The notes beneath the pieces were generated by a model. The model saw nothing but the letters and a program-made list of their open reading frames with translations. It made no database searches and was not told the DNA's origin. From positions 1,158-65,157 of the forward strand of contig JAUVEU010000007.1 in assembly GCA_030594645.1 (NCBI GenBank): a stretch of 64,000 bases of DNA, in the 5' to 3' direction. Source of the DNA: Candidatus Aegiribacteria sp. GTDB lineage: Bacteria > Fermentibacterota > Fermentibacteria > Fermentibacterales > JCC-6. The position numbers were made by a program, and so were the translations under genes. Of this stretch, positions 6,363-55,404 are shown one piece after another. The first letter of the stretch is position 1; each line of letters begins with the position of its first letter.

Positions 6363-6363
6363 A

Positions 6364-18188: not shown

Positions 18189-18224
18189 CCATCGCCTCCG
18201 GCTGGTTCTACCCGGTCCCTGAGC

Positions 18225-18554
18225 TTACTTCTGTTCATCCGACATCAAATCCACTCCAACAGCCCTGATTATGAGTTCTCTTATAGTATCCTCGCCGCGT
18301 TTCATCGTTCCGGTTATACCCGGAAGAACCACGACAGCCGGAATGGCCATATGTACAACTTCTTCAATCTGCTCCTGCAGACAATCCATCATTTTCTCGG
18401 TAATCATGATAACTGATGTTTTCTGCTTTACTAATTTTTCAAATTGTTTCCTTGCATCATCAGTGTTCTCCGGGACTATCGTTTCCACCCCAAGAGCCCT
18501 GAAGCCAAGAACGCTGTCAGCGTCTCCAATAAATGCTATCTCGCCATGCGACAT
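18225..18554 (-). CDS. ntpG: V/A-type ATPase subunit F
   Basis: IAFIGDADSVLGFRALG...RAVGVD; size and position. Confidence 0.9.
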   Translation of the reverse strand: MSHGEIAFIGDADSVLGFRALGVETIVPENTDDARKQFEKLVKQKTSVIMITEKMMDCLQEQIEEVVHMAIPAVVVLPGITGTMKRGEDTIRELIIRAVGVDLMSDEQK

Positions 18555-18563
18555 ACTGTGCTC

Positions 18564-19538: not shown

Positions 19539-19541
19539 TTT

Positions 19542-20129: not shown

Positions 20130-20136
20130 TTTCTGA

Positions 20137-20586
<450 letters not shown>

Positions 20587-20627
20587 TCAATATCTCCTTT
20601 CTCTTTTAACGGAAAGAGTTTTATTTA

Positions 20628-25004: not shown

Positions 25005-28000
25005 ACTTTATGCCATTATTACTCGCTTTGGATTTAGCCCCGAGATGATGAAGCAGACGTTCTTTGAGTCTGTCCGGTCGATCCGCGAGTGATCTTATGT
25101 AAAGCCTTGCTTTACCGTCACCCCAGAGATCATCTATAAGCTGTATCAGTTCGCTGTCACGGCTGACTGCTTCAAGAAGAGGATGATGCGCTTCAACAAG
25201 AGCCAGAAGATCTCCCCTTGTCGAATCCTGTGTCCATCTGATCAGTATGGCTACGGTGTTAGCGTTATCTCTGTATTTACGTCTCATGCCAAGACTTATT
25301 GCTCCAGCCTCAGGAGCGGTTACAGCTCCTGTTCTGGCTCCTATCTCGAGGAAGAACTGAGTTATTGTTTCAACTGCGTCTCTTGCTGTTTCGACGGCCG
25401 AAGATGGTCTGACAGATTCCGAATTGAATATCCAGATATGTTGAAGAACCGATCTGGCAGATTGTATCTCCGAATTCTTGCGCTTCATTATTAAACTTTC
25501 AACGGATGCGAATATTCTTGCGTACTTCTTTGTGAAGAGAATTTGTTCTCTTGATGTTTTTTCTCTGGTAATTCTGTCAAAAAGCATGTTCGTTATCTTT
25601 TTCTGAGGTACAAATCCATTTACAGACTCAGCTGTTTTTTTCGTTGCTTTTCTGCGCCACATCAGTCTGTAAATATTTTTTTCCAGGTTTCTCTCTACCA
25701 TCTGAACGGTCAGTCGTTTTCCTCTTTCAGTTTTCGAAAGGGATTTTTCCAATGCCGTAAAAATGATTGACGGTCTGAAAACCTCATCTGTGCCGAGATA
25801 CCCTATAATCTCTACAAAATCATCCATCATCTGTTCGATCTTCGAGAGACTTTCATTGCTCGTATAGAGCAGAATAATATCAATAAGTACGTTCTCCAGA
25901 GGGGAGAAGGCTTTGCTCCTCCAGAACCTGCATGGATTCTCTCCCGGAGGACAATCGCGAGAAAGGAAAAACTGCTCCACTTTTTCAGGAATCTTATCCT
26001 TCTTTCCAACAGGTTCTCTTCCTTCCATTGATCTGAAAAGATCTATCAACTCGGAATCCCCCGCAGCTTTCAGCAGTTCTGTAACTTCTTTTCTATCCGG
26101 AGACACAGAGACTTTCAGAATAAGTCCCTTACACCCGTTTTCTATAAATCCTTCAACCAGTTTTCTTCCTTCTCTTACTACTATTTTCCTGTGAAGTATC
26201 TGCTGGGTTACCACTTTCAGAGAACCAACCGTATCTCTGAGTATTTCCGACGAGCTGTCTCGGATAGCCCGCCAGATATTCATCATCTGTGCCCCCTCGA
26301 TATCACTCTGTACTTCCTTGAGATCAGAACCGTTATCGAGTTTCCGAGCATATTCATCGATGAGTTTTTTCTCCAGTCTGTTCGACATCCAGGAAAGGAA
26401 AGTAGCTCCCGCAAGCTCCCCATGCATCGAGCCAACAGCAAGTTCAGTAATATCACGAAGATAAGAAATAACCTCTTCAGACCTGCCTGTAAGTATTTCT
26501 ACAGAGAAAGGAATAGTCTCACCAAAAAACACTGAAGCGGTTTTCAGCTGCCAAAGAGCAACATTGCTGTCTTCCGTTTCCTTTGCAGGAATCATTCTTG
26601 TCAGCAATTCTCTCATCAGGTTACCGCTTGTCAGATATTCCGAAATTTCCGGATACTCAACCAGTGTTTTAACGAAAGCCGTTAATCCCCTTGAGAGAAA
26701 TCTGCTGAATATTCTGTGTCCTGATTTTTCCAGCCAGACTGCCTGCTGAGAAAGAGTTTCACAAAGCGTACGGGCACAGTATATAAGATCATTAGCACTT
26801 TTCTCTTCTATTCCCGGTATCCGCAGAAGCCGATTCATCGAGACTTTAAGCGCTTTGCTTCTGTCTTCCGCCCTGAAGAGTCTGCCAAGAAGTGTTGTTT
26901 CTTCATTTCTAAGCTGTTCCAGGCTCATTTCTTTATTGTATGTGGCAACGGCAGATGTAATCAACTCGCCGAATATTAGTTCCTCTGCTCCAATCTCCTG
27001 AAAAAGAGGAGCTATTACTTTATCCAGAAAGCGGCTTCGCATAGATCGATTTGAAATTCTCCCCATTGCTTCAACAACTTTCGTGCAGGAATCAACGGTT
27101 CCATTGGCAAGAGGAGAAAGCCAGTGTGTTTGTTCTCCTTCGAGAAGTCTGCTGCGATAGTTATCGTCCAGCAGATCAAGTATCAGGACGAATATCTCGC
27201 TCTTGATAACATGCTCATGCTTCAATGCTTCATTAGTTGATCGAAGCAGGAGTATTAACGCAGGGAGAAGCTTATCGAAACTGATTTCGGTTTCAGCTAT
27301 TAACTTTTCAAGTGATTCCAGCGATATGGATGGATCGTCCTGGCTCAGCACTGCATCCATAACTCGGCCAACAGAATTAGTAATTCGTCTGATCTCAGGC
27401 GATTTTTCCTTGTCCTCAAGTATTGAAAGGGCAATCGGGATGAATCGTAGATAGTGTTCTGTCTTCAGTTTATCATAAAAAGGCGTTTCCCGGCATTCAG
27501 CCGACATCCTGGCAATTTCAATAATAAGACCGGTGTTTTCGTTTTTCTCGCAAAGGGAATATACCTCCTCAAAGATCTTTCTCTCTGCTTTCCCTCTACT
27601 CCTGAACAGCATTATCTCGGCAATTGCCCGTCCGTATTCAAAAGGAGAGCTGTCTCCTACCGGAATGGCCATGATGCCCAGGCACATGTCTCTTTCAGAT
27701 CGTCTTGCAAGTGTTCTGATCGCTTCCTCTGAAAGAAGTTCAAGTATTTCTGAAAGTACGTCTTCTTCAAGCTGGCCGACAATTTTTTCTATCTCACCTG
27801 GAATTGAATCTTCCTGCAGATTCAGAAGCTGATCTGTGTCCTCCAGGCGTCCAAGAAATCCTGAAAGGATTCTTATTGCTTCCATCTGTACAGAAAATCC
27901 CCTCAGCTTTCTCAGAAGAGATTCTCCATTTCTACCAACAGCTCTCCATACAGGCAGGTTTTCGTCTCCGAGAAGATACCATCCTGTTTCCAGAGCAAAA

Positions 28001-28650
28001 TCAACCAGAGAATTTTCAGCAACAAAGGGTATTTCGGGTATCAGTTCCTGTGCTTTCTCAAGAGCGCGTATGACATTTCCTCCCCCGATTCTCGTTCTCT
28101 CGAGAATGAAACCAAAACGTTCAGGCCAGCTAAAACCTTTCTGTAACAGACTCCTTACAAGAGACGCATCTCCCTGTGTTTCTGAAAGCACCTGAAACAC
28201 ACGATAGAGCAGGCAGAGGAACTCCCTGAATGTTAAACCTGTACTGGGTCCTATTTGATTCCATGTCCAGCTCAGATGAAAGAATTCAAGGACAGCTACA
28301 ACAACAGCAGACGACGGAAGGTTGCTTACAGCAGAGAACCATTCCGTTGCCATGTCCTGCTTTACAGGGGGAGGTTCGCTCATCTTGGAAAGATTTTCGA
28401 GAAGGTTCTTTCCGTCGCCTTTTTTAATTGTTGAGAGAAGGTAAGCAAGAATTTCTCCCGCTTCGGGCCAGTCATTTGAAAACAGGGATATGGCGAAGAT
28501 CCTGCTTCTTGCTTCAGGCTCTATAACAGATTTGTTCAGTGATTTCGAAGGAAGTGAAAAGCCTTTGCCAACTTCCGGAGGACGAGCTGAATAAAGCTTG
28601 TTATTTCTGCTCCAGGATTCAATCTCACGGACTAGTTCTCTTGCCTTTAT
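24997..28650 (-). CDS. large helical hypothetical protein (1128 aa from ATG 28383; 1217 aa if started at ATA 28650)
   Basis: Long ORF, Leu/Glu/Arg/Ile-rich with no recognised motif. The frame stays open 89 codons upstream of the first ATG, up to the gyrA stop. Confidence 0.7.
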
Positions 28651-44497: not shown

Positions 44498-44554
44498 CCT
44501 TTACCTGTAATTGTTGAAGCAGACGTTCATATTCAGAACAGAAAAGGAGAGGCA

Positions 44555-44722
44555 ATGGCGCACATCATTAATGATGATTGTATTGCTTGCGGAGCATGCA
44601 AGCCGGAATGTCCTGTTGACGCTATCAGCGAAGGCGAAAAGTACGTGATAGATAAGGATGCCTGCATAGATTGCGGCGCATGTGTTCCCGCATGCCCTGT
44701 TGGAGCAATAGAAGCTCCCTGA
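44555..44722 (+). CDS. fdx: clostridial-type 2[4Fe-4S] ferredoxin (55 aa)
   Basis: Two CxxCxxCxxxCP motifs; AGGAG RBS before ATG 44555. Confidence 0.95.
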   Translation: MAHIINDDCIACGACKPECPVDAISEGEKYVIDKDACIDCGACVPACPVGAIEAP

Positions 44723-44741
44723 TAAGGCATCGCGGTATATT

Positions 44742-44774
44742 ATGGAAGCCCGGATTTTCATTCCGGGCTTCTAT
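44742..44774. terminator. hairpin terminator between convergent genes
   Basis: gaagcccgga-ttttcat-tccgggcttc. Confidence 0.7.
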
Positions 44775-44786
44775 CCATTTACTGAT

Positions 44787-47609
44787 TCAGTCACCCAGAG
44801 ATTCAAGTCTGAAAAGATCGTGATCCTTCATTTCCAGGGCAAGCTCCCCAAGAGTAATGCCGCGGTAGATTCTGAGTATCCGTTTAAGTCGGAAAGTGGT
44901 TTTTCTGCCTGAATTATGATGTTGTCTGAAACGCTGGAAGGCACTCATTCTATTGGAGATATTCAGCGAATCAATTTCCCAGGGATGGAAATATAGAACT
45001 GGAATTCTACCGGTTCTGGAAATGCTTCTGAGAAGCATTCTGTGAAAAGCGCCAGGATAGAATCTCATATAAGCTCCACCTGCTGCAGGCAGCTTTACAC
45101 GCAGAAATTGAATGGACGCGAGAGGCAGCTCAAGAATAGAATCTTTCTCACCCTTTAGTTCAAAAGGAGAAAGTGGCGCGCAGGGCATACCGTATCGATG
45201 CCTGAACATGGGATAAATACTGCTGTCATACCTGTAACCGCGAGCAACAATCTCATCAATAACCCATTTGGTTCCGGAAGTAACAGAAAAACTGGGCGCC
45301 CTGAATCCAATCGGTTCCGGTATGGATAAAGGTTCGACAAGCTTCTGGAAACGATCAATGTTTCTGCAGAACTCATCGCGCGATTGCATGGAGAGTTCAA
45401 GGTGATGATAGCCGTGGTAGCCTATTTCGTGTCCTTCCTGGACTATTTTCTGAGCGAGTTCAGGATGGCGCTCAAGAAGCCACCCGAGAAAGAAAAAAGT
45501 TGCTTTTGCCTTATGAGCGCTTAGAAGGTCAAGAATATCGTTCAGTGTTTCAGGTGTCCTGGAGTCCATGCTGTTCCACTGTTCCTGAGGATACCATTTT
45601 CTTGCGGCGTAGGTCTGGAACCATTCCTCAATATCGAATGACAGGGCAACCCTTGGTCTGGGGATCTTTATACCGGCTATGTCTCCGCCCATATCCCGGA
45701 ATCGATCCACATCATCCTTCGAAGGGAAGTAATTGAAAGTTGCTTTATCGGAAGAATTCTCAAACAGTTTGTAATCACCACGTTGTATAATCGAAAGTCC
45801 TTCAGAGACAAGATCGGCAGTAATTCGTTTTGATTCCACCTGAAGCAGTTGAACAGATATGTTTTCTATGGAGGCATCAAAAGGTTTCTGAATAAGAATT
45901 CCTCCTGCATCGAGTTTCTTTTCCATCTTATGAAGAGTAACGCCAGGCTGATCTCCGTGGAAAAGAGACCAGAAAGTCGGAAGCATTCCACGGTTTGCGG
46001 GAAGGAGAGAAGAATGCACATTCCAGGCTCCGAGTCTGGGGATTGCGAGCGTACTCTTACTTAGAATCTGTGGACATGCCAGAGAAAGAAAAATATCCGG
46101 ATCAAGGTTTCTAAGCAGATCGTTGGAATCAGGGCTATTTATTCTGTCCAACTTAATGTAATCAGCATGCATTCTGGAAGCTGTCTGTTTCAACGAATGG
46201 GGAAAGCGGGTGGGTAACCTGATAAAGCCTGCTGTCTTAAAAGATAAAAAGCGGATCAGCTCCCGGAAGAATCCGGAAGGACCATAAAGAGCTGTATAGC
46301 GCTTTAAGTTCAGTACTGGTTTCTTCAATGATCCATGTCCGGGAAGAGAGACGAGAGTATACCTGTTGAAGGGGTTTTTCCTGATGATATTTGTGACAGT
46401 CCGGGGAATATTGAAAGGTTCGTTATCACAAAGAAAAACTATACTCATCTCTGGAGAGCTTATTCTGGTGTAGAGATCAAATAAGCAATCAACCATCCTG
46501 CGAGCGGAAAAGGGTTCTATGTCATCATCCACAGATGACAAAAGATGAGTGACAGTAGAGGGGGAATCCAGCAGGCTTATAACACCTCCGGCAAGAGCGG
46601 GTATATCGCCTTCGGGAAACAGTAATCCATTTCGATTCCCATCGACAAGTTCATGAATGCCGCCGACATCGGTAGACACAACAGGAATCCCTGCAGCAAG
46701 GCATTCCAGCAGAGCTCTTGGAAGCCCCTCTGTACGTGATGTTATCAGAAAGAGATCGAAAGCAGGCAGGATTTCTGCAATATCCTTTCTGCTTCCGACA
46801 AGAAGAAAGCTATCCTGAAGATTATGAGATTCAATCCATTTTTCTGTCTGTTTCATGAGGGGGCCGTCACCGACAAGAACAAACAGAACGTCGGGTTTAT
46901 GCTTGATAACCAGAGAGGCGACTTTAACAAAAATGTCGGGTGCTTTCTCCTGACAGAAACGCATAACTGACCCGATAACAGGAATGTCAATCGGGAGATC
47001 AAGCTTTGCTCTTGCCTCGGACTTATTGCCTCTTGCCTTTCGGAATTCCTCGAAATCAACTCCGCTTCGAATAATCATGTAGCTGTCCCTGGATCCGATT
47101 CCGAATCTGACAGCTTTATCGCGATCTCGGGAGCTAACGGCGATATTGGCGTGAGCAAGCCTGAAACCGATCTTTTCAAGCGAGATGTAAAACCATTTTT
47201 TTAAAGAGTGCATGGAATCATAGAAAGGCCATCCATGGGCAGTCTGTATTATTTTTACTTCAGGAAAAGAGGCAGCAGCAAGCCTCCCGAGGAATCGAGC
47301 CTTTGATCCATGTGTATGAACGATATCATAATTCCCGTCTTTTATAATATTTCGAATCTCGAAAAAAGCGATCAAATCATTAACAGGAGATATCTCTCTT
47401 TTGAGATGAGGAGCCAGAAGAAGGTTAATATCCCATTCTCTGACAAGATCATACAAATCCCCTTCAGAAGGTCTCTCAGGTCCGGTGAGGATATCTGAAG
47501 GGTAACCTTTTTCTGATATATCTCTGGTGGAAATAAGCGTATTCATCTGGGCACCACCAACAGCAATTTTCGTGATTATATGGAGTACACGGACTTTTCT
47601 TTCTGACAT
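44787..47609 (-). CDS. fusion: GT4 glycosyltransferase + formyltransferase + NodB-type polysaccharide deacetylase (DUF3473-like)
   Basis: GT4 EGLPRALLE (Ex7E); formyltransferase NVHSSLLP..RG and LDAG; deacetylase SFDIEEW, HGYHH, FRAPSFS, YDSS and YFHPWE. Confidence 0.85.
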   Translation of the reverse strand: MSERKVRVLHIITKIAVGGAQMNTLISTRDISEKGYPSDILTGPERPSEGDLYDLVREWDINLLLAPHLKREISPVNDLIAFFEIRNIIKDGNYDIVHTHGSKARFLGRLAAASFPEVKIIQTAHGWPFYDSMHSLKKWFYISLEKIGFRLAHANIAVSSRDRDKAVRFGIGSRDSYMIIRSGVDFEEFRKARGNKSEARAKLDLPIDIPVIGSVMRFCQEKAPDIFVKVASLVIKHKPDVLFVLVGDGPLMKQTEKWIESHNLQDSFLLVGSRKDIAEILPAFDLFLITSRTEGLPRALLECLAAGIPVVSTDVGGIHELVDGNRNGLLFPEGDIPALAGGVISLLDSPSTVTHLLSSVDDDIEPFSARRMVDCLFDLYTRISSPEMSIVFLCDNEPFNIPRTVTNIIRKNPFNRYTLVSLPGHGSLKKPVLNLKRYTALYGPSGFFRELIRFLSFKTAGFIRLPTRFPHSLKQTASRMHADYIKLDRINSPDSNDLLRNLDPDIFLSLACPQILSKSTLAIPRLGAWNVHSSLLPANRGMLPTFWSLFHGDQPGVTLHKMEKKLDAGGILIQKPFDASIENISVQLLQVESKRITADLVSEGLSIIQRGDYKLFENSSDKATFNYFPSKDDVDRFRDMGGDIAGIKIPRPRVALSFDIEEWFQTYAARKWYPQEQWNSMDSRTPETLNDILDLLSAHKAKATFFFLGWLLERHPELAQKIVQEGHEIGYHGYHHLELSMQSRDEFCRNIDRFQKLVEPLSIPEPIGFRAPSFSVTSGTKWVIDEIVARGYRYDSSIYPMFRHRYGMPCAPLSPFELKGEKDSILELPLASIQFLRVKLPAAGGAYMRFYPGAFHRMLLRSISRTGRIPVLYFHPWEIDSLNISNRMSAFQRFRQHHNSGRKTTFRLKRILRIYRGITLGELALEMKDHDLFRLESLGD

Positions 47610-47612
47610 TAC

Positions 47613-48179
47613 TCAGTCCGTACGTGAGTTTCCGCTGTTTGTGGTGGGTTTGCAGAAAAGGGCGTAAAGGTAGAAGAGGGCAAGAACCACAGTAAGACCG
47701 GAGTAGAACAACGGGCTGATGAAAAGACAACCGATAGCCCAGAACAGGAGAAGAGGTATCAATATGATGCGAAAATGCTTTTTTCTGGTCCAGGTGCGGT
47801 CAGGGGGGTAAGAAGAAAACAATCTGAAGAGATCTTCAGCAATACTGAAAAGAACCACGGAAAGAGCAACGAGCAGAAGATGAAAGATCATTCCTCCGGC
47901 CAGGTGCTGATTATCAATGAGGGCAAAAGCAGATGTGATGAAAGGGAGAAAAATCATGCCCGTGAGGAGAGTTATAAAACCTGTCACCATAAGCCTGTCA
48001 GCCGTCAGGACAGGATACTTCTCCTTCAGGTGACGAACCATTGTATGCATAAGAATACGTGACAGACGAAATAGCCCAATGATCACAAGAATAACAAAGG
48101 CAACCATGCCGTAGTCAATCAGTCTTTCAGTCAAATGAATCCTCCCGATCCAAGAAAATCCGTATTTCAGACAAAGCAA
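47613..48179 (-). CDS. hypothetical integral membrane protein
   Basis: About 5 hydrophobic segments, same strand as its neighbours; start uncertain. Confidence 0.6.
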   Translation of the reverse strand: MLCLKYGFSWIGRIHLTERLIDYGMVAFVILVIIGLFRLSRILMHTMVRHLKEKYPVLTADRLMVTGFITLLTGMIFLPFITSAFALIDNQHLAGGMIFHLLLVALSVVLFSIAEDLFRLFSSYPPDRTWTRKKHFRIILIPLLLFWAIGCLFISPLFYSGLTVVLALFYLYALFCKPTTNSGNSRTD

Positions 48180-48212
48180 TATACAATTCAGTCAATTCAA
48201 GACACAGATAGA

Positions 48213-48809
48213 TCAATCCTTGAGATCCTTTGTCTGGTAGAAGTAACCGGTGATTGCAAAAATCGCTGTCAGAGCAATTCCGATGATGAATCCGCTGTTA
48301 GTATTTTCGGTATACATCCCGATTGTTCTGAGAAAACCAGCACGGTCAAGAATATCCAGAGCTGAAGATCCGGCGACATAGCCTCCGGCCAGAGCGGTTA
48401 TGAACGCAATGACAGGAGTTCTGTATACCTGTACAAGAATACCGATAGCAAGAGCAATTCCAGCATGAGCAACGCCTGGAATTCCAGGAAGAAGCCCCCT
48501 CACGGCAAAAAGACCTATAACCGTGCCGGCAAAGAACATTGATATCTTCCAGGCAACAACGGAAAGTCCGGCTGATACTAATCCGGTCACCCATGGAATC
48601 CAGGGGGAACTGCTGATGGTTTGATTAAGGGCATCGCAGACAACCTGCGCGCCAAGGGAATAACCGATCAGAAATCCGAAAAGAAGAATGACGAAACCAA
48701 GTAACTTCTTCCCGAAGAAACAGAATATAAGACCGATAACCAGTCCTGCAATCGAAAGAGTAAGAAGATCTGTCTCAAAAATAAGATGCATATAGCTTTC
48801 CTTTCTCAA
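48213..48809 (-). CDS. DUF4203/TMEM198-like membrane protein
   Basis: GL.FCFFG.KL, GFL.G and TAL.G pattern; about 7 TM. Confidence 0.7.
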   Translation of the reverse strand: MRKESYMHLIFETDLLTLSIAGLVIGLIFCFFGKKLLGFVILLFGFLIGYSLGAQVVCDALNQTISSSPWIPWVTGLVSAGLSVVAWKISMFFAGTVIGLFAVRGLLPGIPGVAHAGIALAIGILVQVYRTPVIAFITALAGGYVAGSSALDILDRAGFLRTIGMYTENTNSGFIIGIALTAIFAITGYFYQTKDLKD

Positions 48810-49498
48810 TTCCTTTCTGTTGTATTCAGAAGGGTAAGAATAGATCCAATACCGTTAATTGCATATCCTGACTTAATGTCAAGCCCTCGATTAAGGTCGT
48901 TAAGCACAAGAACACTTTGAAAACCGCCTTCCTCTGCCGCTCTGATGCCTTTCCAGGAATCCTCGAAGACCAGGATATCAGAAGGCAGAACGCCCATCCT
49001 TGAAGCGGCAAGAAGGAAAATGTCTGGAGCAGGCTTTTTCCTTAAACCCTCTCCTCCTACAAGAGCAGGAACATGTGCGTTGGAATGCTGGAGAATCTCC
49101 TTCACAATCCATGAACGTGTATTCGAAGCAATGCAGAAAGGGCGTATAGACATTTCAGACACGGAGGAAAGTCTGGCCAGCAACTCTTTTACCCGTGGAA
49201 ACAGCGGGATATCTCCCCGTCTGCAATAACCCTCATATATCTCCCTCTGAGAAAGAGCCGCTTGATCAGCATCTATGTTCTGAAGACCGTTTCTCCGGAT
49301 CTCACCTTCCAGCCCTTCACCAAGTGAAGACCAGTACAGCCAGTAATCCTCAGGGGTAATTGAATGGCCCCATGGCTCGAGCGCAGCATTCCAGGATCTT
49401 CTGAAAAAGGGTTCGCTGTCTGCCAGAACGCCGTCAAAATCGAAAAGGGCGGCTCCGCATTTATTCCATGCTTCAGCCAGTTTATCAGAGGCGTTCAT
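48806..49498 (-). CDS. HAD-superfamily phosphatase (beta-PGM-like)
   Basis: FDFDGVLADSE, KPAPDIF and VFEDS motifs. Confidence 0.9.
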   Translation of the reverse strand: MNASDKLAEAWNKCGAALFDFDGVLADSEPFFRRSWNAALEPWGHSITPEDYWLYWSSLGEGLEGEIRRNGLQNIDADQAALSQREIYEGYCRRGDIPLFPRVKELLARLSSVSEMSIRPFCIASNTRSWIVKEILQHSNAHVPALVGGEGLRKKPAPDIFLLAASRMGVLPSDILVFEDSWKGIRAAEEGGFQSVLVLNDLNRGLDIKSGYAINGIGSILTLLNTTERN

Positions 49499-49646
49499 TA
49501 TTCAGCATTCCGTTCCTTTCACCTTGGCCTTACGTGAATCTGGTTACATAATACAAAATCCGACAGCACAGAGACCACATTGCTGTTTGATTAAGAGTGT
49601 GCCATACGATCTTTACAGGAAGATAACAGGTTCGGGGGGGGTTGAA

Positions 49647-50549
49647 TTGTTCAAGAATTTCCTTGAAATCAGACAGGCCGCAAAAGATATATCCGATGCC
49701 AGGGTGGCCGTTCCTATGGGACATGACCCGGCCTCTATGAAAGCCCTGATTACAGCCGTGGAGGAAGGTCTGGCTTCGGTTGTTGTCTTTGGTCCGATGG
49801 CAGGGGTGAACGACACCCTTTCAGGCCTGGGGATGAACCTTCCATCAGGAATAGAAATTGTGGATACGGAAGATCAGGAGAAAGCAGCGGCAGAAGCGGT
49901 AAGGATGGTAAGTTCAGGAGAGGCTTCAATCCTGATGAAGGGCATGCTGAAAACCTCGGTATTTCAGAAAGCTATGCTCGACAAAGATACAGGCCTTCGT
50001 ACAGGTCGGGTTCTGAGTCATGTAGCTGTAGTGAGCGCACCGGTTATGGGCAGATTGATCATAATTACAGACGGAGGGATGAATATACGGCCTGAGTCTG
50101 ACGCGGTCGTACAGATAGCACTCAATGCGTCCGATGTAATAATGAAACTGGGTGCGGAGAAACCTCTTGTTGCTCTGCTTGCCGCGATAGAAACAGAGAA
50201 TCCCAAAATGCCTGAGACAATACGCTTTTCTGAAGTAGCACGCAGGGGTATTCCCGGACTGGAAGTTCTCGGACCGGTAGCAGTTGACGGGGCGCTGGAT
50301 CCTGAATCCGCGGCAGTAAAGAACATTTCAGGCCCGGTCGCGGGGAAAGCAAATATACTGATCACACCTGATATCGCATGCGGCAATATTCTGGCGAAAG
50401 GTTTGATGTATATGGCTGGAGCGGAGATAGGAGGTTTGATCATGGGAGCGGCAGCTCCGGTGGTGATGCTGTCCCGCTCTGACAAACCGATTACAAAATT
50501 GAATTCTCTCGCTCTTGGCGTGATACTTTCAGGAGGATGCAATGTCTGA
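49647..50549 (+). CDS. ptb: phosphate butyryl/acyl transferase
   Basis: LMKG, LSHVA, TDGGMNI.P, GNILAK and LSRSD motifs; upstream of buk. Likely TTG start at 49647. Confidence 0.88.
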   Translation: MFKNFLEIRQAAKDISDARVAVPMGHDPASMKALITAVEEGLASVVVFGPMAGVNDTLSGLGMNLPSGIEIVDTEDQEKAAAEAVRMVSSGEASILMKGMLKTSVFQKAMLDKDTGLRTGRVLSHVAVVSAPVMGRLIIITDGGMNIRPESDAVVQIALNASDVIMKLGAEKPLVALLAAIETENPKMPETIRFSEVARRGIPGLEVLGPVAVDGALDPESAAVKNISGPVAGKANILITPDIACGNILAKGLMYMAGAEIGGLIMGAAAPVVMLSRSDKPITKLNSLALGVILSGGCNV

Positions 50550-51624
50550 AGAAGGAAGATTGATTCTGGCTATCAATCCTGGAGGGACTTCTACAAAACT
50601 CGGTCTCTTCAGGGAAACAGAGCTGCTTTTTGAAGAAAGTATTCGCCATCTCCAGGAAGAGCTGGGAAAGTATGAAACCACGTTCGATCAACATGAGTTT
50701 CGAAAAGAAATCATCCTGAATACCCTTACAGAAGCCGGACATGATGTTTCAGACCTGACGGCTGTTGTGGGAAGAGGAGGAGCTTTCAAACCACTGAAAA
50801 GCGGAACCTACAGGGTAAACAAAAAACTTGTTGATGATATAAAGGAAGGGACAACTCTGCAGGCTGATCATCCGTCAAATCTAGGAGCTCTTCTTGCTTT
50901 CAGCATTGCGGAAACATCAGATCTCGCAGCATTTATTGTTGATCCTGTGTGCGTTGATGAAATGATAGACGAGGCAAGACTTTCCGGCCTTCCATGCCTT
51001 CCGAGAATCAGCCTGAGCCATGCTCTCAATATCCGCATGGTAGCGTATAAGGCAGCAGAAAGACTTGAGAAAAACCTTGATGAAATCAATCTTGTTGTAC
51101 TGCACCTCGGTAGCGGTATATCGGTAAATGCCCTGAGAAAAGGACGAATGATTGATACGAGTCAGGCAAATGATGGAGGACCTTTCAGCCCGCAGAGAGT
51201 AGGGGCGCTTCCAACAACAGGCCTTGCTCGATTATGTCTTTCAGGCGACTATAACTGGAAAGACATGAAAAGGATCCTTCTGAAAGAAGGAGGTCTTTAT
51301 GCATACACCGGAACCGACCATGTTGGAGAAGCGGTACAGAGAGCAGAAAGAGGAGATAAAACAGCCGACCTGGCCCTCAGAGCGATGGCCTACCAGATAA
51401 TCAAGGAAGGCGGCGCTATGGCGGCTGCTCTTCACGGAGATGTGGATGCTATAGTAATTACAGGAGGAATAGCGCATAACAGATGGATGACAGACAGGCT
51501 GATTGAAGGCCTGGGTTTCCTCGGAGAAGTGATTCTTTTCCCTGGCGAAGAAGAACTGGAAGCTCTTGCCAGAGGAGTACTGAGAGTTCTGGACTCTGTC
51601 GAGGAAGAAAAGACATACGACTAA
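50542..51624 (+). CDS. buk: butyrate (branched-chain carboxylate) kinase
   Basis: INPGGTSTK, GRGG, H.SNLG, HALN, GPFSP.R and PGEEELEAL motifs. Confidence 0.95.
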   Translation: MSEEGRLILAINPGGTSTKLGLFRETELLFEESIRHLQEELGKYETTFDQHEFRKEIILNTLTEAGHDVSDLTAVVGRGGAFKPLKSGTYRVNKKLVDDIKEGTTLQADHPSNLGALLAFSIAETSDLAAFIVDPVCVDEMIDEARLSGLPCLPRISLSHALNIRMVAYKAAERLEKNLDEINLVVLHLGSGISVNALRKGRMIDTSQANDGGPFSPQRVGALPTTGLARLCLSGDYNWKDMKRILLKEGGLYAYTGTDHVGEAVQRAERGDKTADLALRAMAYQIIKEGGAMAAALHGDVDAIVITGGIAHNRWMTDRLIEGLGFLGEVILFPGEEELEALARGVLRVLDSVEEEKTYD

Positions 51625-51641
51625 TTTCAGAAAGGCGGAAT

Positions 51642-53426
51642 ATGAGAGAAAAACTCAATACGATTGTGGATGGAACTCTCCTTCTATCAGGAAACGAAGC
51701 AATCGCAAGAGGTGCCTGGGAGTCCGGCGTGCATTTCGCGTCAGCCTATCCAGGGACTCCTTCTACTGAAATCCTTGAGACAATTGGAGATGAATACGAC
51801 GAGATTGACGCTCAATGGGCTCCTAATGAAAAAGTCAGCCTTGAGGTTATTGCAGGAGCATCATTCGCAGGAGCAAGAGTGTTATCCGCAATGAAGCATG
51901 TGGGGCTGAATGTTGCTGCCGATCCTCTTTTTACGCTCAGCTACCTGGGGGCAACAGGTGGAATAGTCATAGTATCCGCTGATGATCCGGGCATGCATTC
52001 CAGTCAGAACGAGCAGGACAACCGTCTTATGGCGAGAGCAGCGAAAGTTGTCTGCCTTGAACCTTCCGACAGCCAGGAAGCCAAGGACATGGTCGGAGAG
52101 GCTCTTTCCATATCCGAGGATTTTGACACTCCGGTTCTCATACGAGTCACTACCAGGATATGTCACTCAAAGAGTATCGTGAAGGTAGGTCCCCGCAGGG
52201 AAGTTCCAGTGAAGGGGTATGTAACTGATATAGCCAAAAGAGTACCTATTCCCTCGAACGCAAGGAAAATGCATTCAAGAGTCGTTAAAAGGCTCAAAGA
52301 ACTTTCCGTCTGGGGCTCCGAAAGTTCTCTAAACTGGATTGAGGATGGCGACCGCGCTGTCGGCATTATAACAAGCGGAATCTCATATCAGTACGTCAAA
52401 GAGGTTTGTCCGGAAGCATGCCTGCTGAAGATAGGCATGTCCAACCCCTTACCCTGGAACTTGATAGAGAAGTTTATCGGCATGGTCGACAAAGTGATCT
52501 TCGTCGAGGAAGGAGAACCATTCCTTGAAGAAAGAGTCCGTTCGAAATTCCTCATTCCCGCAATCGGCAAGGATATTATTTCAAATGAGGGAGAACTGAA
52601 TCCGGAATTAGTCAGGAAAGCTCTACATCCGGGTACGACAAAAGCGGTCACATTCTTCGAAGCAGAACTCCCCGCGAGACCTCCTGCTCTTTGCCCCGGC
52701 TGCCCCCACAGAGGCGCTTTCTACTGCCTGAGTAAGCTCAATGGCAGTTCCACTGGAGACATTGGCTGCTATACTCTTGGACTCATGGCGCCCTTCAATG
52801 CGCTTGAGACAACTATCTGCATGGGCGCTTCCATTGGAGTACTGAGCGGAATTGAAAAAGCGGTTGGCAGAGAGGGAATGGGGAAACTTGTTGCCGCAAT
52901 AGGAGAATCAACTTTTGTGCATTCCGGAATAACCGGACTCATAGACATGGTCTACAATGGGAATACCGGAACCGTAATGATAATGGACAACAGCCTTACC
53001 GCTATGACCGGCGGGCAGGAAAACCCTACAACAGGTAAAAATTTGAGGGGAGAGCCTGCGCCTGTGCTTGATCTTGTCAAGGTTGTTGAATCCTGCGGAG
53101 TGAAGCACATCAGGGTTATCGACCCGCATGATCTAACCGAGATGGAGAAAGTATTCAAAGAGGAGTTCGAGAGGGATGAACTTTCAGTGATTATCACAAG
53201 ACGTCCCTGTGTAATGTGCTACAGACCGGTAAAAAAGAGTGTGGCAATACTTGATCCGGAGAAATGTATAGGGTGTAAACTCTGCATGAAACTCGGGTGT
53301 CCCGCTATAAGCTGGAAGGATGAAAAACCTGATATCAGCAAGCTTCTCTGCTGGCCTAACTGTGATCTTTGCGTTCAGGTCTGTCCTGTTGACGCTATCT
53401 CGAAGGACATGGAGGGATTGGAATGA
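51642..53426 (+). CDS. iorA: indolepyruvate:ferredoxin oxidoreductase alpha subunit
   Basis: GNEAIARG, YPGTPSTEI, KHVGLNVAAD, SSQNEQD, CPGCPHR, TAMTG.Q and a C-terminal ferredoxin domain. Confidence 0.95.
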   Translation: MREKLNTIVDGTLLLSGNEAIARGAWESGVHFASAYPGTPSTEILETIGDEYDEIDAQWAPNEKVSLEVIAGASFAGARVLSAMKHVGLNVAADPLFTLSYLGATGGIVIVSADDPGMHSSQNEQDNRLMARAAKVVCLEPSDSQEAKDMVGEALSISEDFDTPVLIRVTTRICHSKSIVKVGPRREVPVKGYVTDIAKRVPIPSNARKMHSRVVKRLKELSVWGSESSLNWIEDGDRAVGIITSGISYQYVKEVCPEACLLKIGMSNPLPWNLIEKFIGMVDKVIFVEEGEPFLEERVRSKFLIPAIGKDIISNEGELNPELVRKALHPGTTKAVTFFEAELPARPPALCPGCPHRGAFYCLSKLNGSSTGDIGCYTLGLMAPFNALETTICMGASIGVLSGIEKAVGREGMGKLVAAIGESTFVHSGITGLIDMVYNGNTGTVMIMDNSLTAMTGGQENPTTGKNLRGEPAPVLDLVKVVESCGVKHIRVIDPHDLTEMEKVFKEEFERDELSVIITRRPCVMCYRPVKKSVAILDPEKCIGCKLCMKLGCPAISWKDEKPDISKLLCWPNCDLCVQVCPVDAISKDMEGLE

Positions 53427-54001
53427 AACCCGTAACAAATGTGATCATATGCGGCACTGGAGGTCAGGGGATTCTGCTTGCGAGCGAGATTCTCTGCGAA
53501 GCGGCCAGGATGGCCGGCAATGATGTAAAGAAGAGCGAGGTTCACGGAATGGCCCAGAGGGGCGGAAGTGTTTCCAGCCATGTCAGGTTCGGAGAGAAAG
53601 TGTACAGCCCACTGGTGGAAAAAGGGACGGCTGATCTTATCCTTTCAATGGAGAAGATGGAGGCTCTGAGATGGGCACCATTCCTTTCGCCATCTGGAAC
53701 CCTTTTATCATGTGATCTCGAGATAACTCCAATGACAGTTAACACAGGACACGCTGTGTATCCCGATGTTATATCCATGATGAAAGAGCAGGATATACCA
53801 TGCAGAATGGTACCGGCTTTTGAGATAGCCGAGGAACTAGGTAACCTCAGAGTGGTCAATGTGGTACTGATCGGAGCAGCGTCTCCATTTATTCCGATAG
53901 ATGAAGATTACTGGTACAGGGCTGTCGAGGAAAGGGTTCCGTCAAAAGCTCTCAAGGTAAACATTGAAGCTTTCAGAAAAGGAAGACAACTGTCAGTATG
54001 A
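53423..54001 (+). CDS. iorB: indolepyruvate:ferredoxin oxidoreductase beta subunit
   Basis: GTGGQG and SEVHGMAQRGGSV motifs. Confidence 0.95.
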   Translation: MKPVTNVIICGTGGQGILLASEILCEAARMAGNDVKKSEVHGMAQRGGSVSSHVRFGEKVYSPLVEKGTADLILSMEKMEALRWAPFLSPSGTLLSCDLEITPMTVNTGHAVYPDVISMMKEQDIPCRMVPAFEIAEELGNLRVVNVVLIGAASPFIPIDEDYWYRAVEERVPSKALKVNIEAFRKGRQLSV

Positions 54002-55404
54002 GGATTCTTTTTCTGGTTCATGACCCAATAACAATACCTCTGGGAATAGGTTACCTTGCATCGATTGCCATTGACCTCGGCCATGAAATAAGCGCTCTTT
54101 CATTAAACATGAAGGATCTTACGGACACTGTGCGAAAAACAGCGCCGGATATCCTGGCGTTTGGAACCACCACAGGATTCCACAGGAAATACAGCGAAGT
54201 CGTGAAAAGCCTTAAAGAAGCAACAGGAGTTCTCACGATAATGGGAGGAGCTCATCCGACGTTCTTCCCCGAGGTGCTGTCCGAGAATTCATGGCTTGAT
54301 TACGCAATGCGCGGCGAAGCCGAGACGGCGTTTCCACAATTTCTGGAAGCGCTTGATGGAAGAAGATCGATAGGAGAGGTCGGCAACCTTCTCTATCGGG
54401 AGAACGGACAGATACGTGAAAATCAGATTCTTCCATTGGTTGAAGACCTTGATACAATCCCGTTTCCCTATAGAGATCTGCTTCCTGGAGCGAACAGAAA
54501 GGCTGTGTTCTGCATAACAGGTCGGGGATGTCCATACGATTGCAGTTACTGTTTCAATCAGAGCTTCAGGCAGATGTACAGCGGTCTCGGAAAGTACTGC
54601 AGAAGAAGATCAGTCGGAAATGTTATCGATGAATTGAAAGAGTTGAAGGAAGAAAATACCGAACTTCAGATGATAATTTTTCAGGATGACATCTTCATTC
54701 TTGATCACGAATGGGTCAGAGAATTCTGCAGGAAATACAGTATTGAAATTGCTCTCCCGTTTCACTGTCATCTCAGAGCCAATCTGGTTACAGATGAAAT
54801 CATGGGACTGCTGGCGGAAGCGGGGTGCATCAGTGTGAAAATGGCGCTGGAAACCGCAAATCCACGCCTGAGGAAGGAAGTGCTTAATCGAGATCTCAGC
54901 ACAGAGGAACTGCTGAATGCCTGCCGGGCCGTTAAGGAAAGCGGCATCATGCTGGTAACACAGAATATTCTTGGTATCCCCACCGGCACACTTGAGGATG
55001 ATCTGGACACTCTCAGACTGAACTATGAAATACAGCCGGATTTCGCTTTTGCGACACTGATGCAACCCTATCCGCGTACAAAAATCAGTGAATTCAGCAA
55101 AGAACAGGGTCTTCTCAGCGATGGTGACTACATACCTGATTCATTTTTTGATGACTGTATTCTGAATCTTCCTGACAACGATAGAAGGAAGCGGCTGCGT
55201 CAGTTATTCGCGCTTTCCATAGAATTCAAACCGGTGCGGTATCTTTTGAAAACACTGATAAGACTGCCTCTTGATTGCCTGTACGGATTTCTGGACAAAC
55301 TGTGGAAGGGTTACTGTATAAAGCAGAGGGAATTCCCTTACAAGCTCTCATTCAGAGAATATGTATCCAGTATGCTGACCTATTTCAGAAGCAGGTACTA
55401 CTAG
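53998..55404 (+). CDS. B12-binding radical SAM protein
   Basis: PLGIGYLA, GGAHPTF, RGCPYDCSYCFN and PYPRT motifs; ATGA overlap with iorB. Confidence 0.88.
   Translation: MRILFLVHDPITIPLGIGYLASIAIDLGHEISALSLNMKDLTDTVRKTAPDILAFGTTTGFHRKYSEVVKSLKEATGVLTIMGGAHPTFFPEVLSENSWLDYAMRGEAETAFPQFLEALDGRRSIGEVGNLLYRENGQIRENQILPLVEDLDTIPFPYRDLLPGANRKAVFCITGRGCPYDCSYCFNQSFRQMYSGLGKYCRRRSVGNVIDELKELKEENTELQMIIFQDDIFILDHEWVREFCRKYSIEIALPFHCHLRANLVTDEIMGLLAEAGCISVKMALETANPRLRKEVLNRDLSTEELLNACRAVKESGIMLVTQNILGIPTGTLEDDLDTLRLNYEIQPDFAFATLMQPYPRTKISEFSKEQGLLSDGDYIPDSFFDDCILNLPDNDRRKRLRQLFALSIEFKPVRYLLKTLIRLPLDCLYGFLDKLWKGYCIKQREFPYKLSFREYVSSMLTYFRSRYY

What the first reader, a model, noticed from the sequence alone, without database searches (positions are those of the whole stretch)
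44787..47609. Three-enzyme fusion GT4 + formyltransferase + de-N-acetylase: a possible acetyl-to-formyl glycan swap
Seen: one uninterrupted 940-aa ORF with a complete GT4 domain (about aa 1-385, Ex7E), an N10-formyl-THF formyltransferase domain (about aa 390-645; Asn-x-His in NVHSSLLP, Asp in LDAG) and a CE4/NodB deacetylase (about aa 650-940; DIEE, HGYHH, RAP, HPWE). Established: each domain occurs separately in exopolysaccharide loci, and sugar N-formyltransferases normally act on NDP-amino sugars. Inference: one polypeptide could transfer an N-acetyl sugar, remove the acetyl group and formylate the freed amine on a glycan. I do not recognise this architecture as described. It sits outside any polysaccharide cluster, downstream of two membrane proteins and a HAD phosphatase.
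Basis: partly seen in the sequence, partly recalled or inferred. Interest (0 to 1): 0.75.

Follow-up and report, generated by a model that had tools for sequence, protein, structure and literature searches.

The report
Three-enzyme sugar-editing fusion protein
One real 940-residue protein of an uncultured sediment bacterium joins a sugar-adding enzyme to a deacetylase and a formyltransferase, and most likely swaps the acetyl group of an amino sugar for a formyl group, a route no one has tested.

Summary
Window 44787-47609 (-) is one intact 940-aa ORF with three domains: GT4 glycosyltransferase, a short folate-type formyltransferase and a DUF3473/CE4 deacetylase. All three keep their catalytic signatures. 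Contigs from other sequencing runs bridge both junctions without indels.

The fusion is uninterrupted in 27 of 70 genomes of the phylum (sources name relatives Candidatus Fermentibacteria/Aegiribacteria). Relatives carry the same genes split: three adjacent genes, a formyltransferase-deacetylase two-domain protein, or two separate genes. One genus (0 of 19 genomes) lacks the formyltransferase and keeps only the GT4.

The locus is a tight operon (HAD phosphatase, two small membrane proteins, fusion) beside parB near the replication origin. Outside the phylum, the formyltransferase family (639 cluster representatives at E<=1e-30) lies next to a DUF3473 deacetylase in 4 of 6 loci examined. These loci are polysaccharide clusters without an aminotransferase.

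Best reading: HexNAc transfer, de-N-acetylation, then N-formylation, following NodC/NodB/NodA or VimE/VimA logic. An Arn-like "formylate, transfer, deformylate" scheme is less likely. Nothing here is biochemically shown, and the acceptor is unknown. Earlier notes of this scan describe the two-gene cassette in other genomes. The GT4-containing triple fusion is a new variant.

The parts
44787..47609 (-). Whole 940-aa fusion ORF (P0001), stop codon included
   Evidence: It is uninterrupted in 27 of 70 phylum genomes. Contigs of other runs bridge it without gaps.
46455..47609 (-). GT4 (GT-B) glycosyltransferase domain, about aa 1-385, with E294-x7-E302
   Evidence: Pfam Glyco_transf_4 and Glycos_transf_1. 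The best solved relative by sequence is BshA 5d00, E 1.9e-18. The best NCBIfam model is TIGR03088 stp2, 120.9 bits against a cut-off of 409. E302 is invariant and E294 nearly invariant.
45660..46451 (-). Short formyltransferase domain, aa 387-650, with N530, H532 and D567 and no Fmt/ArnA-type C-terminal domain
   Evidence: Pfam Formyl_trans_N. ArnA 8gjh scores E 5.6e-15 with the catalytic residues aligned. The AF2 model has pLDDT 94.6. Foldseek finds Fmt 4iqf at 6.5e-18 and ArnA-N 2bln at 2.9e-17. The family profile finds 639 cluster representatives at E<=1e-30.
44790..45659 (-). CE4-type de-N-acetylase domain with DUF3473 extension, aa 651-940
   Evidence: Pfam Polysacc_deac_1 and DUF3473. 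TIGR03006 scores 254.5 bits against a cut-off of 276.2. The AF2 model has pLDDT 89.7. Foldseek finds 3rxz at 3e-13, HP0310 (3qbu), PuuE, and ArnD 8t0j at rank 20.
47613..48179 (-). Small membrane protein 'memB' (ORF 188 aa; homologues align from about residue 16); its stop lies 3 nt before the fusion's start codon
   Evidence: Hydropathy shows about 4-5 hydrophobic segments, and identity is 43-49% in 5 of 5 phylum loci compared. It has no Pfam or NCBIfam family, and no Atlas hit reaches 0.9.
48213..48809 (-). Small membrane protein 'memA' (198 aa), weakly like TM7S3/TM198 (DUF4203)
   Evidence: (E 5e-5, below the cut-off). Identity is 26-31% in 4 of 5 phylum loci compared. It overlaps the HAD gene by 4 nt.
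48806..49498 (-). HAD-IA family phosphatase, first gene of the putative operon
   Evidence: Pfam Hydrolase and HAD_2. NCBIfam places it in the beta-phosphoglucomutase-family hydrolase subfamily at 70 bits, with no equivalog reached. Identity is 45-51% in 5 of 5 phylum loci compared.

Best explanation
The protein is a cytoplasmic three-step glycan-editing enzyme. Step 1 (inferred): the GT4 domain transfers an N-acetylhexosamine from a UDP-HexNAc donor onto a still unknown, probably membrane-associated acceptor. Step 2 (inferred): the CE4/DUF3473 domain hydrolyses the N-acetyl group and exposes a free amine. Step 3 (inferred): the formyltransferase domain uses N10-formyl-tetrahydrofolate to formylate that amine. 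The product carries an N-formylhexosamine where an N-acetylhexosamine was installed. This is the acyl-swap logic of NodC/NodB/NodA and of VimE/VimA, with formyl as the new acyl group. What is shown: the three domains, their conserved catalytic residues, the fusion and fission pattern, and the gene neighbourhoods. What is inferred: substrate, order of steps and product. My odds are about 0.65 for an acetyl-to-formyl swap at some level, and 0.4 for editing after transfer, which is the version stated here.
For: (1) All three catalytic signatures are conserved across 23 fusions of 43-87% identity and in the wider domain families.
(2) The fusion/fission (Rosetta-stone) pattern is clear. The same three genes occur as one ORF (27 of 70 genomes), as three adjacent genes in the same order (G041, G040, G069), as a formyltransferase-deacetylase two-domain protein (G038), or as two adjacent genes (family f2). 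Remote proteins repeat parts of the order: P0242 is GT4+formyltransferase and aligns colinearly over aa 6-576; P0222 is formyltransferase+deacetylase and aligns colinearly over aa 388-899; P0139 and P0185 are GT2+formyltransferase.
(3) Of 6 true family loci from other phyla, 4 have the formyltransferase directly beside a DUF3473 deacetylase, inside clusters with GT2/GT4, Bac_transf, Wzz, Poly_export or Wzy_C. None of the 6 has a DegT-type aminotransferase within 7 kb. The deacetylase is therefore the only enzyme in the cassette that can make the amine to be formylated.
(4) The same genome has a classical pair, a DegT 3' end directly followed by a different 243-aa formyltransferase, on another contig. 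The two routes are thus distinguishable.
(5) Several of the GT4 domain's nearest solved relatives are HexNAc transferases: BshA, the undecaprenyl-linked GalNAc transferase 8dqd and TarM (their donor sugars are recalled).
(6) Formate-THF ligase is present in the genome.
(7) Genus g7 keeps the GT4 orthologue (53-58% identity) in the same operon but has no formyltransferase of this family in 0 of 19 genomes. This is easier to explain if the GT4 uses an ordinary HexNAc donor and editing follows transfer.
(8) Published precedent: passages of PMC7468200 propose that the CE4 enzyme VimE removes a 2-N-acetyl group and the FemAB-like VimA adds Ser or Gly.
Against: There is no biochemical or glycan-structure evidence for any member. 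Every characterised sugar N-formyltransferase I recall acts on an NDP-amino sugar, not on a transferred glycan. The formyltransferase domain's best solved matches are ArnA and Fmt. CE4 motif 1 reads D-x-E-E instead of the canonical D-D, and the domain falls just short of the TIGR03006 cut-off (254.5 against 276.2 bits). The trio is not obligatory: family f2 (9 genomes) has the formyltransferase and deacetylase but no GT4 orthologue in the locus, and genus g7 has the GT4 alone. The link to the HAD and membrane genes could simply reflect the strongly conserved gene order near the origin. The count of 4 of 6 outside loci is small.
Confidence: 0.4

Rival explanations
1. The same acetyl-to-formyl swap, but at the nucleotide-sugar level before transfer. 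The CE4 domain de-N-acetylates a UDP-HexNAc-type precursor, the formyltransferase makes UDP-HexNFo, and the GT4 domain then transfers the N-formyl sugar.
For: All characterised sugar N-formyltransferases that match the domain (QdtF, FdtF, WbkC, WlaRD, VioF, ArnA) act on NDP-sugars (recalled). The formyltransferase is fused to different glycosyltransferase folds (GT2 in P0139 and P0185, GT4 in P0242), as expected if it supplies a donor. Family f2 has the pair without this GT4.
Against: No CE4 enzyme I know of acts on a nucleotide sugar (recalled: NodB, ArnD, PgaB and HfsH act after transfer). Genus g7 keeps a 53-58% identical GT4 without the editing enzymes, which under this model would require a change of donor specificity.
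Confidence: 0.25
2. Arn-like transient formylation. An amino sugar nucleotide made elsewhere is formylated, the GT4 transfers the N-formyl sugar to a lipid carrier or acceptor, and the CE4 domain acts as a deformylase (like ArnD). A cationic free amine remains. The two small membrane proteins would play an ArnE/ArnF-like flippase role.
For: ArnA is the best PDB sequence hit of the formyltransferase domain (E 5.6e-15) and the best NCBIfam hit (82.9 bits). ArnD (8t0j) is a significant structural match of the CE4 domain (E 1.7e-8, TMq 0.56). Two small membrane proteins lie upstream. A PMT_2 (ArnT-like GT-C) gene and small GT2 genes lie at 3859-7428 of the same window.
Against: No aminotransferase or UDP-sugar oxidase/decarboxylase lies in the operon, on this contig, or within 7 kb in any of the 6 outside loci. 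The glycosyltransferase is GT4, not an ArnC-type GT2. ArnD ranks only 20th among structural matches, below generic CE4-like enzymes. The domain belongs to the TIGR03006/DUF3473 group, which the cited paper links to re-acylating FemAB-like enzymes. The PMT_2 cluster is about 38 kb away. A formylate-then-deformylate cycle has no evident purpose when the amine comes from an irreversible deacetylation (inference).
Confidence: 0.1
3. The domains are fused only for co-expression and do not act in sequence on one sugar. For example, the deacetylase product (a free amine) could be the end point, and the formyltransferase could modify another molecule such as a lipid head group, a peptide or a small metabolite.
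For: The GT4 and the editing pair occur independently in genus g7 and family f2. The formyltransferase family has its own N-terminal motif (CDDEPFxIP) and a long helical insert (residues 45-76 of the model) absent from the consensus fold description, which may mean an unusual substrate.
Against: The formyltransferase and deacetylase are adjacent or fused in every phylum locus examined that contains them (G000, G069, G041, G010, G005, G038, G063) and in 4 of 6 loci from other phyla. Such persistent coupling points to consecutive steps.
Confidence: 0.1

Closest known systems
XrtA/PEP-CTERM-system polysaccharide deacetylase (TIGR03006) and glycosyltransferase stp2 (TIGR03088)
   Same: These are the best NCBIfam models for the CE4 domain (254.5 bits) and the GT4 domain (120.9 bits). 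They share the DUF3473 extension and the D-x-E..H-x3-H..R-x-P motifs.
   Different: Both scores are below the curated cut-offs (276.2 and 409). No exosortase (PF09721) was found in this 94%-complete genome. Here the partner enzyme is a formyltransferase, not a FemAB-like protein.
Wbp/Vim pathway of Porphyromonas gingivalis and Tannerella forsythia (VimE CE4 deacetylase, VimA FemAB-like acyltransferase, VimF glycosyltransferase)
   Same: The logic matches: remove the 2-N-acetyl group of a sugar, put another acyl group on the amine, and involve a glycosyltransferase (passages of PMC7468200).
   Different: No VimE family model appears among the 10 NCBIfam hits of the CE4 domain at E<=0.001. The new acyl group there is seryl or glycyl, added by a FemAB-like enzyme; here a folate-dependent formyltransferase takes that place. 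Those genes are separate.
NodC/NodB/NodA of rhizobial Nod-factor synthesis (recalled)
   Same: A glycosyltransferase, then a cytoplasmic CE4 de-N-acetylase, then N-acylation of the freed amine. NodB is a significant hit at 53.7 bits.
   Different: The NodB score is far below its 240-bit cut-off. NodC is a GT2. NodA is an unrelated fatty-acyl transferase. The substrate is a chitin oligomer.
Lipid A aminoarabinose pathway: ArnA N-terminal formyltransferase, ArnC, ArnD, ArnE/F (pathway recalled)
   Same: It has the same three enzyme classes plus small membrane proteins. ArnA is the closest solved sequence relative of the formyltransferase domain, and ArnD is a structural relative of the CE4 domain.
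   Different: The order of chemistry is opposite (formylate, transfer, deformylate). The Arn pathway needs ArnB and the ArnA C-terminal domain, which are absent here. The glycosyltransferase here is GT4 rather than GT2, and the CE4 subfamily is different.
NDP-amino-sugar N-formyltransferases (QdtF 4xcz, FdtF 5uij, WbkC 5vyr, WlaRD 4lxq, VioF 4yfv, PseJ 6ci2)
   Same: They share the fold and the N-x-H..D triad, have a similar small size (about 240-270 aa catalytic unit), and belong to surface-glycan pathways.
   Different: Identity is only 15-23%. As I recall, their genes accompany aminotransferases; this genome has its own such pair on contig C109. This family accompanies a deacetylase and has its own N-terminal motif and helical insert.
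GT4 plus de-N-acetylase pairs of low-molecular-weight thiol and GPI pathways (BshA/BshB, MshA/MshA2/MshB, PIG-A/PIG-L; recalled)
   Same: BshA is the closest solved relative of the GT4 domain. The scheme is GlcNAc transfer, sometimes a phosphatase step, then de-N-acetylation and N-acylation. A HAD phosphatase heads the operon here.
   Different: Those deacetylases are of the LmbE/PIG-L type, not CE4. The BshA model scores 110 bits against a cut-off of 273.7 and the MshA model 58 against 462.5. No cysteine ligase is present.

Membership tests
CAZy GT4 / GT-B retaining glycosyltransferases | Two Rossmann-like halves (Glyco_transf_4 plus Glycos_transf_1) | tested here: met
   residues 18-187 and 196-352, both above the gathering scores.
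CAZy GT4 / GT-B retaining glycosyltransferases | E-x7-E motif in the C-terminal half | tested here: met
   E294-G-L-P-R-A-L-L-E302. E302 is invariant and E294 nearly invariant in 23 fusions.
CAZy GT4 / GT-B retaining glycosyltransferases | Donor and acceptor specificity | not testable with these tools
   There is only similarity to HexNAc-using enzymes.
N10-formyl-THF-dependent formyltransferases (Formyl_trans_N) | Catalytic Asn-x-His and Asp | tested here: met
   N530, H532 and D567 align to ArnA's catalytic residues. They are invariant in alignments A1, A2 and A6.
N10-formyl-THF-dependent formyltransferases (Formyl_trans_N) | Fold of the catalytic domain | tested here: met
   The AF2 model has pLDDT 94.6. 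Foldseek TMq is 0.65-0.68 to Fmt and ArnA-N, with E down to 6.5e-18.
Fmt / ArnA-type formyltransferases | C-terminal OB-like domain (Formyl_trans_C) | tested here: not met
   No PF02911 hit. The domain ends at about aa 650 and the deacetylase follows directly. The fmt model scores 72.4 bits against a cut-off of 201.5, and the ArnA model 82.9 against 777.
CE4 (NodB-homology) de-N-acetylases | His-His metal-binding motif and the Arg-x-Pro motif | tested here: met
   H732 and H736 and R770-A-P772 align to 3rxz and other CE4 structures. They are conserved in the family.
CE4 (NodB-homology) de-N-acetylases | Canonical motif 1, Asp-Asp (catalytic base plus metal ligand) | tested here: inconclusive
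   The family has an invariant D659-x-E661-E662 instead. The HMMER alignments to solved CE4 enzymes start after this motif.
CE4 (NodB-homology) de-N-acetylases | Distorted (beta/alpha) barrel fold | tested here: met
   The AF2 model has pLDDT 89.7. Foldseek gives 88 PDB matches at E<=0.001, mostly CE4 enzymes among those listed.
TIGR03006 XrtA-system polysaccharide deacetylase (equivalog) | Score above the curated cut-off | tested here: not met
   254.5 bits against 276.2.
TIGR03006 XrtA-system polysaccharide deacetylase (equivalog) | Genome encodes an exosortase / PEP-CTERM system | tested here: not met
   No PF09721 match in the own genome, which is 94.3% complete.
Arn (Ara4N) pathway | ArnB-type aminotransferase and UDP-GlcA oxidative decarboxylase supplying the amino sugar | tested here: not met
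   There is no DegT match on contig C144 and no dehydrogenase domain in the protein or operon. None of the 6 outside loci has one either.
Arn (Ara4N) pathway | ArnC-type GT2 polyprenyl-phosphate glycosyltransferase | tested here: not met
   The fused glycosyltransferase is GT4.
Arn (Ara4N) pathway | CE4 enzyme that is a deformylase | not testable with these tools
   ArnD is a structural match but only at rank 20. Activity needs an assay.
Wbp/Vim pathway | VimE-type deacetylase and FemAB-like VimA | tested here: not met
   No VimE model appears among the NCBIfam hits at E<=0.001. No FemAB-like gene lies in the operon.

The most novel reading that the evidence does not exclude
The phylum-wide origin-proximal operon (HAD phosphatase, two small membrane proteins, fusion) may not decorate an ordinary polysaccharide. 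It could build a dedicated N-formyl-hexosaminyl glycoconjugate, either a glycolipid or a small glycoside. The route would parallel the first steps of mycothiol or bacillithiol synthesis: a GT4 puts GlcNAc on a phosphorylated acceptor, a phosphatase acts, the sugar is de-N-acetylated, and the amine is N-acylated. The formyltransferase would then act on a glycoside amine rather than on a nucleotide sugar. That would be a new substrate class for folate-dependent formyltransferases and a new envelope or solute molecule typical of Fermentibacterota.
Probability: 0.2. Interest if true: 0.75.

Novelty: new variant of a known kind. Interest (0 to 1): 0.5.

Why it matters
As far as I recall, N-formyl sugars of bacterial surfaces are known to arise only from NDP-amino sugars made by aminotransferases. 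A deacetylase-coupled route would let any N-acetyl sugar be turned into an N-formyl sugar. It would also explain a widespread, unstudied two-gene cassette: 639 cluster representatives at E<=1e-30, found in several phyla. The triple fusion is the most useful entry point for a test. It names the glycosyltransferase that works with the cassette and puts all three activities in one expressible protein. It also comes with natural controls in sister lineages, namely GT4 only, pair only, and three separate genes. Its conservation beside the replication origin suggests a core envelope or metabolite function in an uncultured phylum of anoxic sediments and digesters.

Tried and rejected
- **Cluster names.** I could not obtain source names for the wider family and scanned the members with Pfam instead.
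- **Locus search.** The search for related loci failed with two alignments, which had no conserved stretch. It worked with the single medoid protein P0137. Of the 80 loci kept I annotated 8 that matched over most of the query. Two of these (L027, L059) proved to be ordinary Fmt, judged by Formyl_trans_C and neighbours such as peptide deformylase. The other 72, which match query residues about 61-259 at most, were not annotated and were assumed to be mostly Fmt. The figure 4 of 6 therefore rests on a small sample.
- **Second copy.** The second copy in the assembly (G000:C143, 61% identity) is not a paralogue. It sits beside its own parB-parA-rsmG-mnmG, so it comes from a second co-binned population.
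- **Membrane protein.** The ESM Atlas on memB gave no hit at 0.9 or above.
- **Promoters and terminators.** The scan of 44500-50000 was no better than shuffles.
- **RNA.** No RNA holder was listed, so expression could not be examined.
- **Literature.** ('DUF3473': 0 papers) found no paper on a deacetylase-formyltransferase swap or on this architecture.


Full report
**Observation**

The ORF at 44787-47609 on the minus strand is real: 940 codons, ATG start, no internal stop. Pfam finds a complete GT4 glycosyltransferase (Glyco_transf_4 at 18-187, Glycos_transf_1 at 196-352). It also finds a Formyl_trans_N core (492-582) and a Polysacc_deac_1 plus DUF3473 deacetylase (682-914). NCBIfam names the nearest curated families as follows:
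- The deacetylase matches the XrtA-system polysaccharide deacetylase TIGR03006 (254.5 bits; cut-off 276.2).
- The GT4 matches the XrtA-system glycosyltransferase stp2, TIGR03088 (120.9 bits; cut-off 409).
- The middle domain matches ArnA and Fmt.

Across 23 full-length fusions of 43-87% identity, E302, N530, H532, D567, D659, E661, E662, R770-A-P772, D795, W877 and E878 are invariant. E294, H732, H736 and H875 are nearly invariant. In the HMMER alignment to Salmonella ArnA (8gjh, E 5.6e-15), the catalytic N-x-H and D align with N530/H532 and D567. GC content is the same as in the flanks.

**Not an assembly artefact**

Contigs from other public runs cover both domain junctions without gaps. X3 record 2 spans 45434-47370. 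X6, from another study and a roughly 96%-identical strain, spans the junctions with records 10 and 11. No insertion, deletion or joint is listed.

In the protein database, 60 of the 108 listed hits carry GT4, Formyl_trans_N and Polysacc_deac_1 together. Of these, 52 are 916-1008 aa long, and identities run from 43% to 94%. Where sources give a name, it is Candidatus Fermentibacteria or Aegiribacteria.

In whole genomes of the phylum, 27 of 70 hold an uninterrupted match across all three domains.

**Fusion and fission in the phylum**

The same genes occur in other states in relatives.
- G041, G040 and G069 have three adjacent genes in the same order. In G069 the gene ends overlap by a few bases (7806-8966, 8963-9742, 9736-10638 in L016).
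- G038 has a two-domain formyltransferase-deacetylase protein, with the GT4 orthologue on another contig.
- The nine genomes of family f2 have separate, adjacent formyltransferase and deacetylase genes and no GT4 orthologue in the locus.
- Genus g7 keeps only the GT4 orthologue (53-58% identity; a match in all 19 genomes).

A profile of the formyltransferase domain finds the family in 48 of 70 genomes. It finds it in 0 of 19 genomes of g7, ten of which are at least 90% complete. Both g1 genomes without a match are only 66-67% complete.

The second copy in this assembly (contig C143, 61% identity) lies beside its own parB-parA-rsmG-mnmG. It therefore belongs to a second co-binned population and is not a paralogue.

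**Neighbourhood**

The window covers the replication-origin region: gyrB, gyrA, dnaN, dnaA, yidC, mnmE, mnmG, rsmG, parA, parB and a ferredoxin. The fusion converges on the ferredoxin gene. Upstream on its strand, spaced by 3 nt, 33 nt and a 4-nt overlap, lie memB (188-aa ORF), memA (198 aa, weak DUF4203 similarity) and a HAD-IA phosphatase.

The unit [quoted passage not shown] sits between parB and pta-ack in all six origin loci examined (G000, G069, G041, G010, G005, G058). HAD is 45-51% identical and memB 43-49% identical in 5 of 5 comparisons; memA is 26-31% identical in 4 of 5.

Because the whole origin region is syntenic, adjacency alone is weak evidence of a shared function. The tight spacing does suggest co-transcription. 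I could not test this: no RNA run is listed, and promoter and terminator scans were at chance level.

**The formyltransferase family beyond the phylum**

A profile search of 1.84 billion cluster representatives gave 639 hits at E<=1e-30. In the top 150, most are stand-alone proteins of about 250-270 aa that match the whole profile. I scanned seven longer hits outside the triple fusions.
- P0222 is formyltransferase+DUF3473 deacetylase.
- P0139 and P0185 are GT2+formyltransferase.
- P0242 is GT4+formyltransferase.
- P0202 has a weak GT1-like N-terminus plus the formyltransferase.
- Two have no second domain.

P0242 aligns colinearly with residues 6-576 of the window protein, and P0222 with residues 388-899. 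The order GT4, formyltransferase, deacetylase therefore recurs in distant relatives.

In reference genomes I obtained six true family loci: Victivallales, Chloroflexota, Brocadiia, Latescibacterota, Chitinivibrionales, and one 65%-GC MAG contig whose record title names Klebsiella. In four of the six the formyltransferase is directly beside a DUF3473 deacetylase. The loci hold GT2/GT4 genes, Bac_transf, Wzz, Poly_export and Wzy_C. None has a DegT aminotransferase within 7 kb. In G038 of the phylum itself, the two-domain protein also sits in a Wzz/Poly_export/GT2/Wzy_C cluster.

**Structure**

AlphaFold models of the two C-terminal domains are confident (pLDDT 94.6 and 89.7).

The formyltransferase model matches Fmt (4iqf, E 6.5e-18) and the ArnA N-terminal domain (2bln, 2.9e-17, TMq 0.68). 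The NDP-sugar N-formyltransferases WbkC, FdtF and QdtF follow at 15-23% identity. The domain lacks the Fmt/ArnA C-terminal domain. It also has a family-specific N-terminal motif (CDDEPFxIP) and a long helix at residues 45-76 of the domain.

The deacetylase model matches the larger CE4-like enzymes best: 3rxz at 3e-13, HP0310, 3s6o and PuuE. ArnD (8t0j) comes at rank 20 and WbmS at rank 47. Motif 1 of this family is D-x-E-E rather than the canonical D-D.

**Mechanism**

The cassette contains exactly one enzyme able to create a sugar amine, the de-N-acetylase, and one able to acylate it, the formyltransferase. No aminotransferase accompanies it in any locus examined.

The same genome holds a separate, classical pair on contig C109: the 3' end of a DegT gene followed directly by a different 243-aa formyltransferase. 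Formate-THF ligase is present, so the formyl donor is available.

The self-sufficient order is therefore deacetylate, then formylate: an acetyl-to-formyl swap. It is also the logic of VimE/VimA, for which passages of PMC7468200 propose removal of the 2-N-acetyl group by a CE4 enzyme and addition of Ser or Gly by a FemAB-like enzyme of the family co-distributed with PEP-CTERM loci.

I favour editing after GT4 transfer (0.4) over editing of the nucleotide sugar (0.25), for two reasons.
- CE4 enzymes I know of act on transferred sugars.
- Genus g7 keeps a close GT4 orthologue without the editing enzymes.

Either version requires one of the two enzyme families to take a substrate class not yet documented for it.

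An Arn-like scheme (0.1) is disfavoured. An amine source is missing, the glycosyltransferase is GT4, and the structural match to ArnD is modest. A purpose-free cycle is also unlikely when the amine comes from hydrolysis.

Independent action of the domains (0.1) is disfavoured because the formyltransferase and deacetylase are persistently adjacent or fused.

**Known or new**

Four full-text searches found no paper on this architecture, on DUF3473, or on a deacetylase-coupled route to N-formyl sugars.

Earlier notes of this scan describe the deacetylase-formyltransferase cassette, fused or not, in other genomes and read it the same way, untested. My reading was fixed before I saw them. They are not independent evidence.

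This locus adds three things:
- a fused GT4 partner;
- a phylum-wide, origin-proximal operon with a phosphatase and two membrane proteins;
- natural partial versions in sister lineages.

I class it as a new variant of a known kind (the acyl-swap editing of amino sugars), with moderate interest.

**Limits**

- There is no biochemistry, no glycan data and no expression data.
- Names of the wider family could not be retrieved.
- Only six outside loci were examined.
- The acceptor, and the roles of the HAD and membrane proteins, are unknown.

Noticed in passing
window 1-11177: A glycosylation cluster about 33 kb from the fusion. It holds three B12-binding radical SAM genes (1-1164, 1121-2695, 7341-8795), three GT2 genes (2792-3844, 3859-4593, 6364-7428), a PMT_2/ArnT-like GT-C membrane glycosyltransferase (4590-6362), an NDP-sugar epimerase/dehydratase (9014-10174) and a PHP-domain protein (10167-11177). 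In G038 the formyltransferase-deacetylase gene and a Wzy/Wzz/export cluster sit beside the equivalent PHP-LTD-DJ-1 genes.
   Followed up: partly
G000:C109 (L102) 11-953: The 3' end of a DegT aminotransferase gene (11-211) is followed directly by a 243-aa formyltransferase (222-953) that does not belong to the fusion's family. It did not pass E<=1e-25. This looks like a classical NDP-amino-sugar N-formylation pair.
   Followed up: partly
G000:C129 (L021) 2826-9693: A second, stand-alone DUF3473 deacetylase (8881-9693, 30% identical) lies in a polysaccharide locus with Bac_transf, DegT, two GT2 genes and a methyltransferase. No formyltransferase is next to it.
   Followed up: no
G000:C143 (L020) 1-4663: This contig carries a 61%-identical copy of the fusion's C-terminal 476 residues next to parB, parA, rsmG and mnmG. 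The bin therefore contains origin regions of two related populations. G029 shows the same doubling.
   Followed up: yes
window 24997-28383 (-): A 1128-aa ORF between an asparaginase gene and gyrA has no Pfam family at E<=1e-6.
   Followed up: no
window 14360-22664 (-): A V/A-type ATPase operon (subunits D, B, A, C/AC39, E, I).
   Followed up: no
window 49524-55404 (+): Divergent from the operon lie a phosphotransacetylase-like gene, an acetate-kinase-family gene with only a partial Pfam match (residues 163-328), a two-subunit 2-oxoacid:ferredoxin oxidoreductase and a B12-binding radical SAM gene. The pta-ack pair keeps this position in the other phylum loci.
   Followed up: no
L025 (CAMAWH010000017.1) 1-10649: This contig's public title says Klebsiella pneumoniae MAG, but it has 65% GC and a GT4/Bac_transf/formyltransferase cluster. 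The label looks doubtful.
   Followed up: no
L015 (G063:C8) 8364-10021: Genus g8 has a more distant formyltransferase-deacetylase pair (31-36% identity to the fusion) in another context, between an MFS transporter and CsgG/LpoB-like lipoprotein genes. Its GT4 orthologue is elsewhere.
   Followed up: partly
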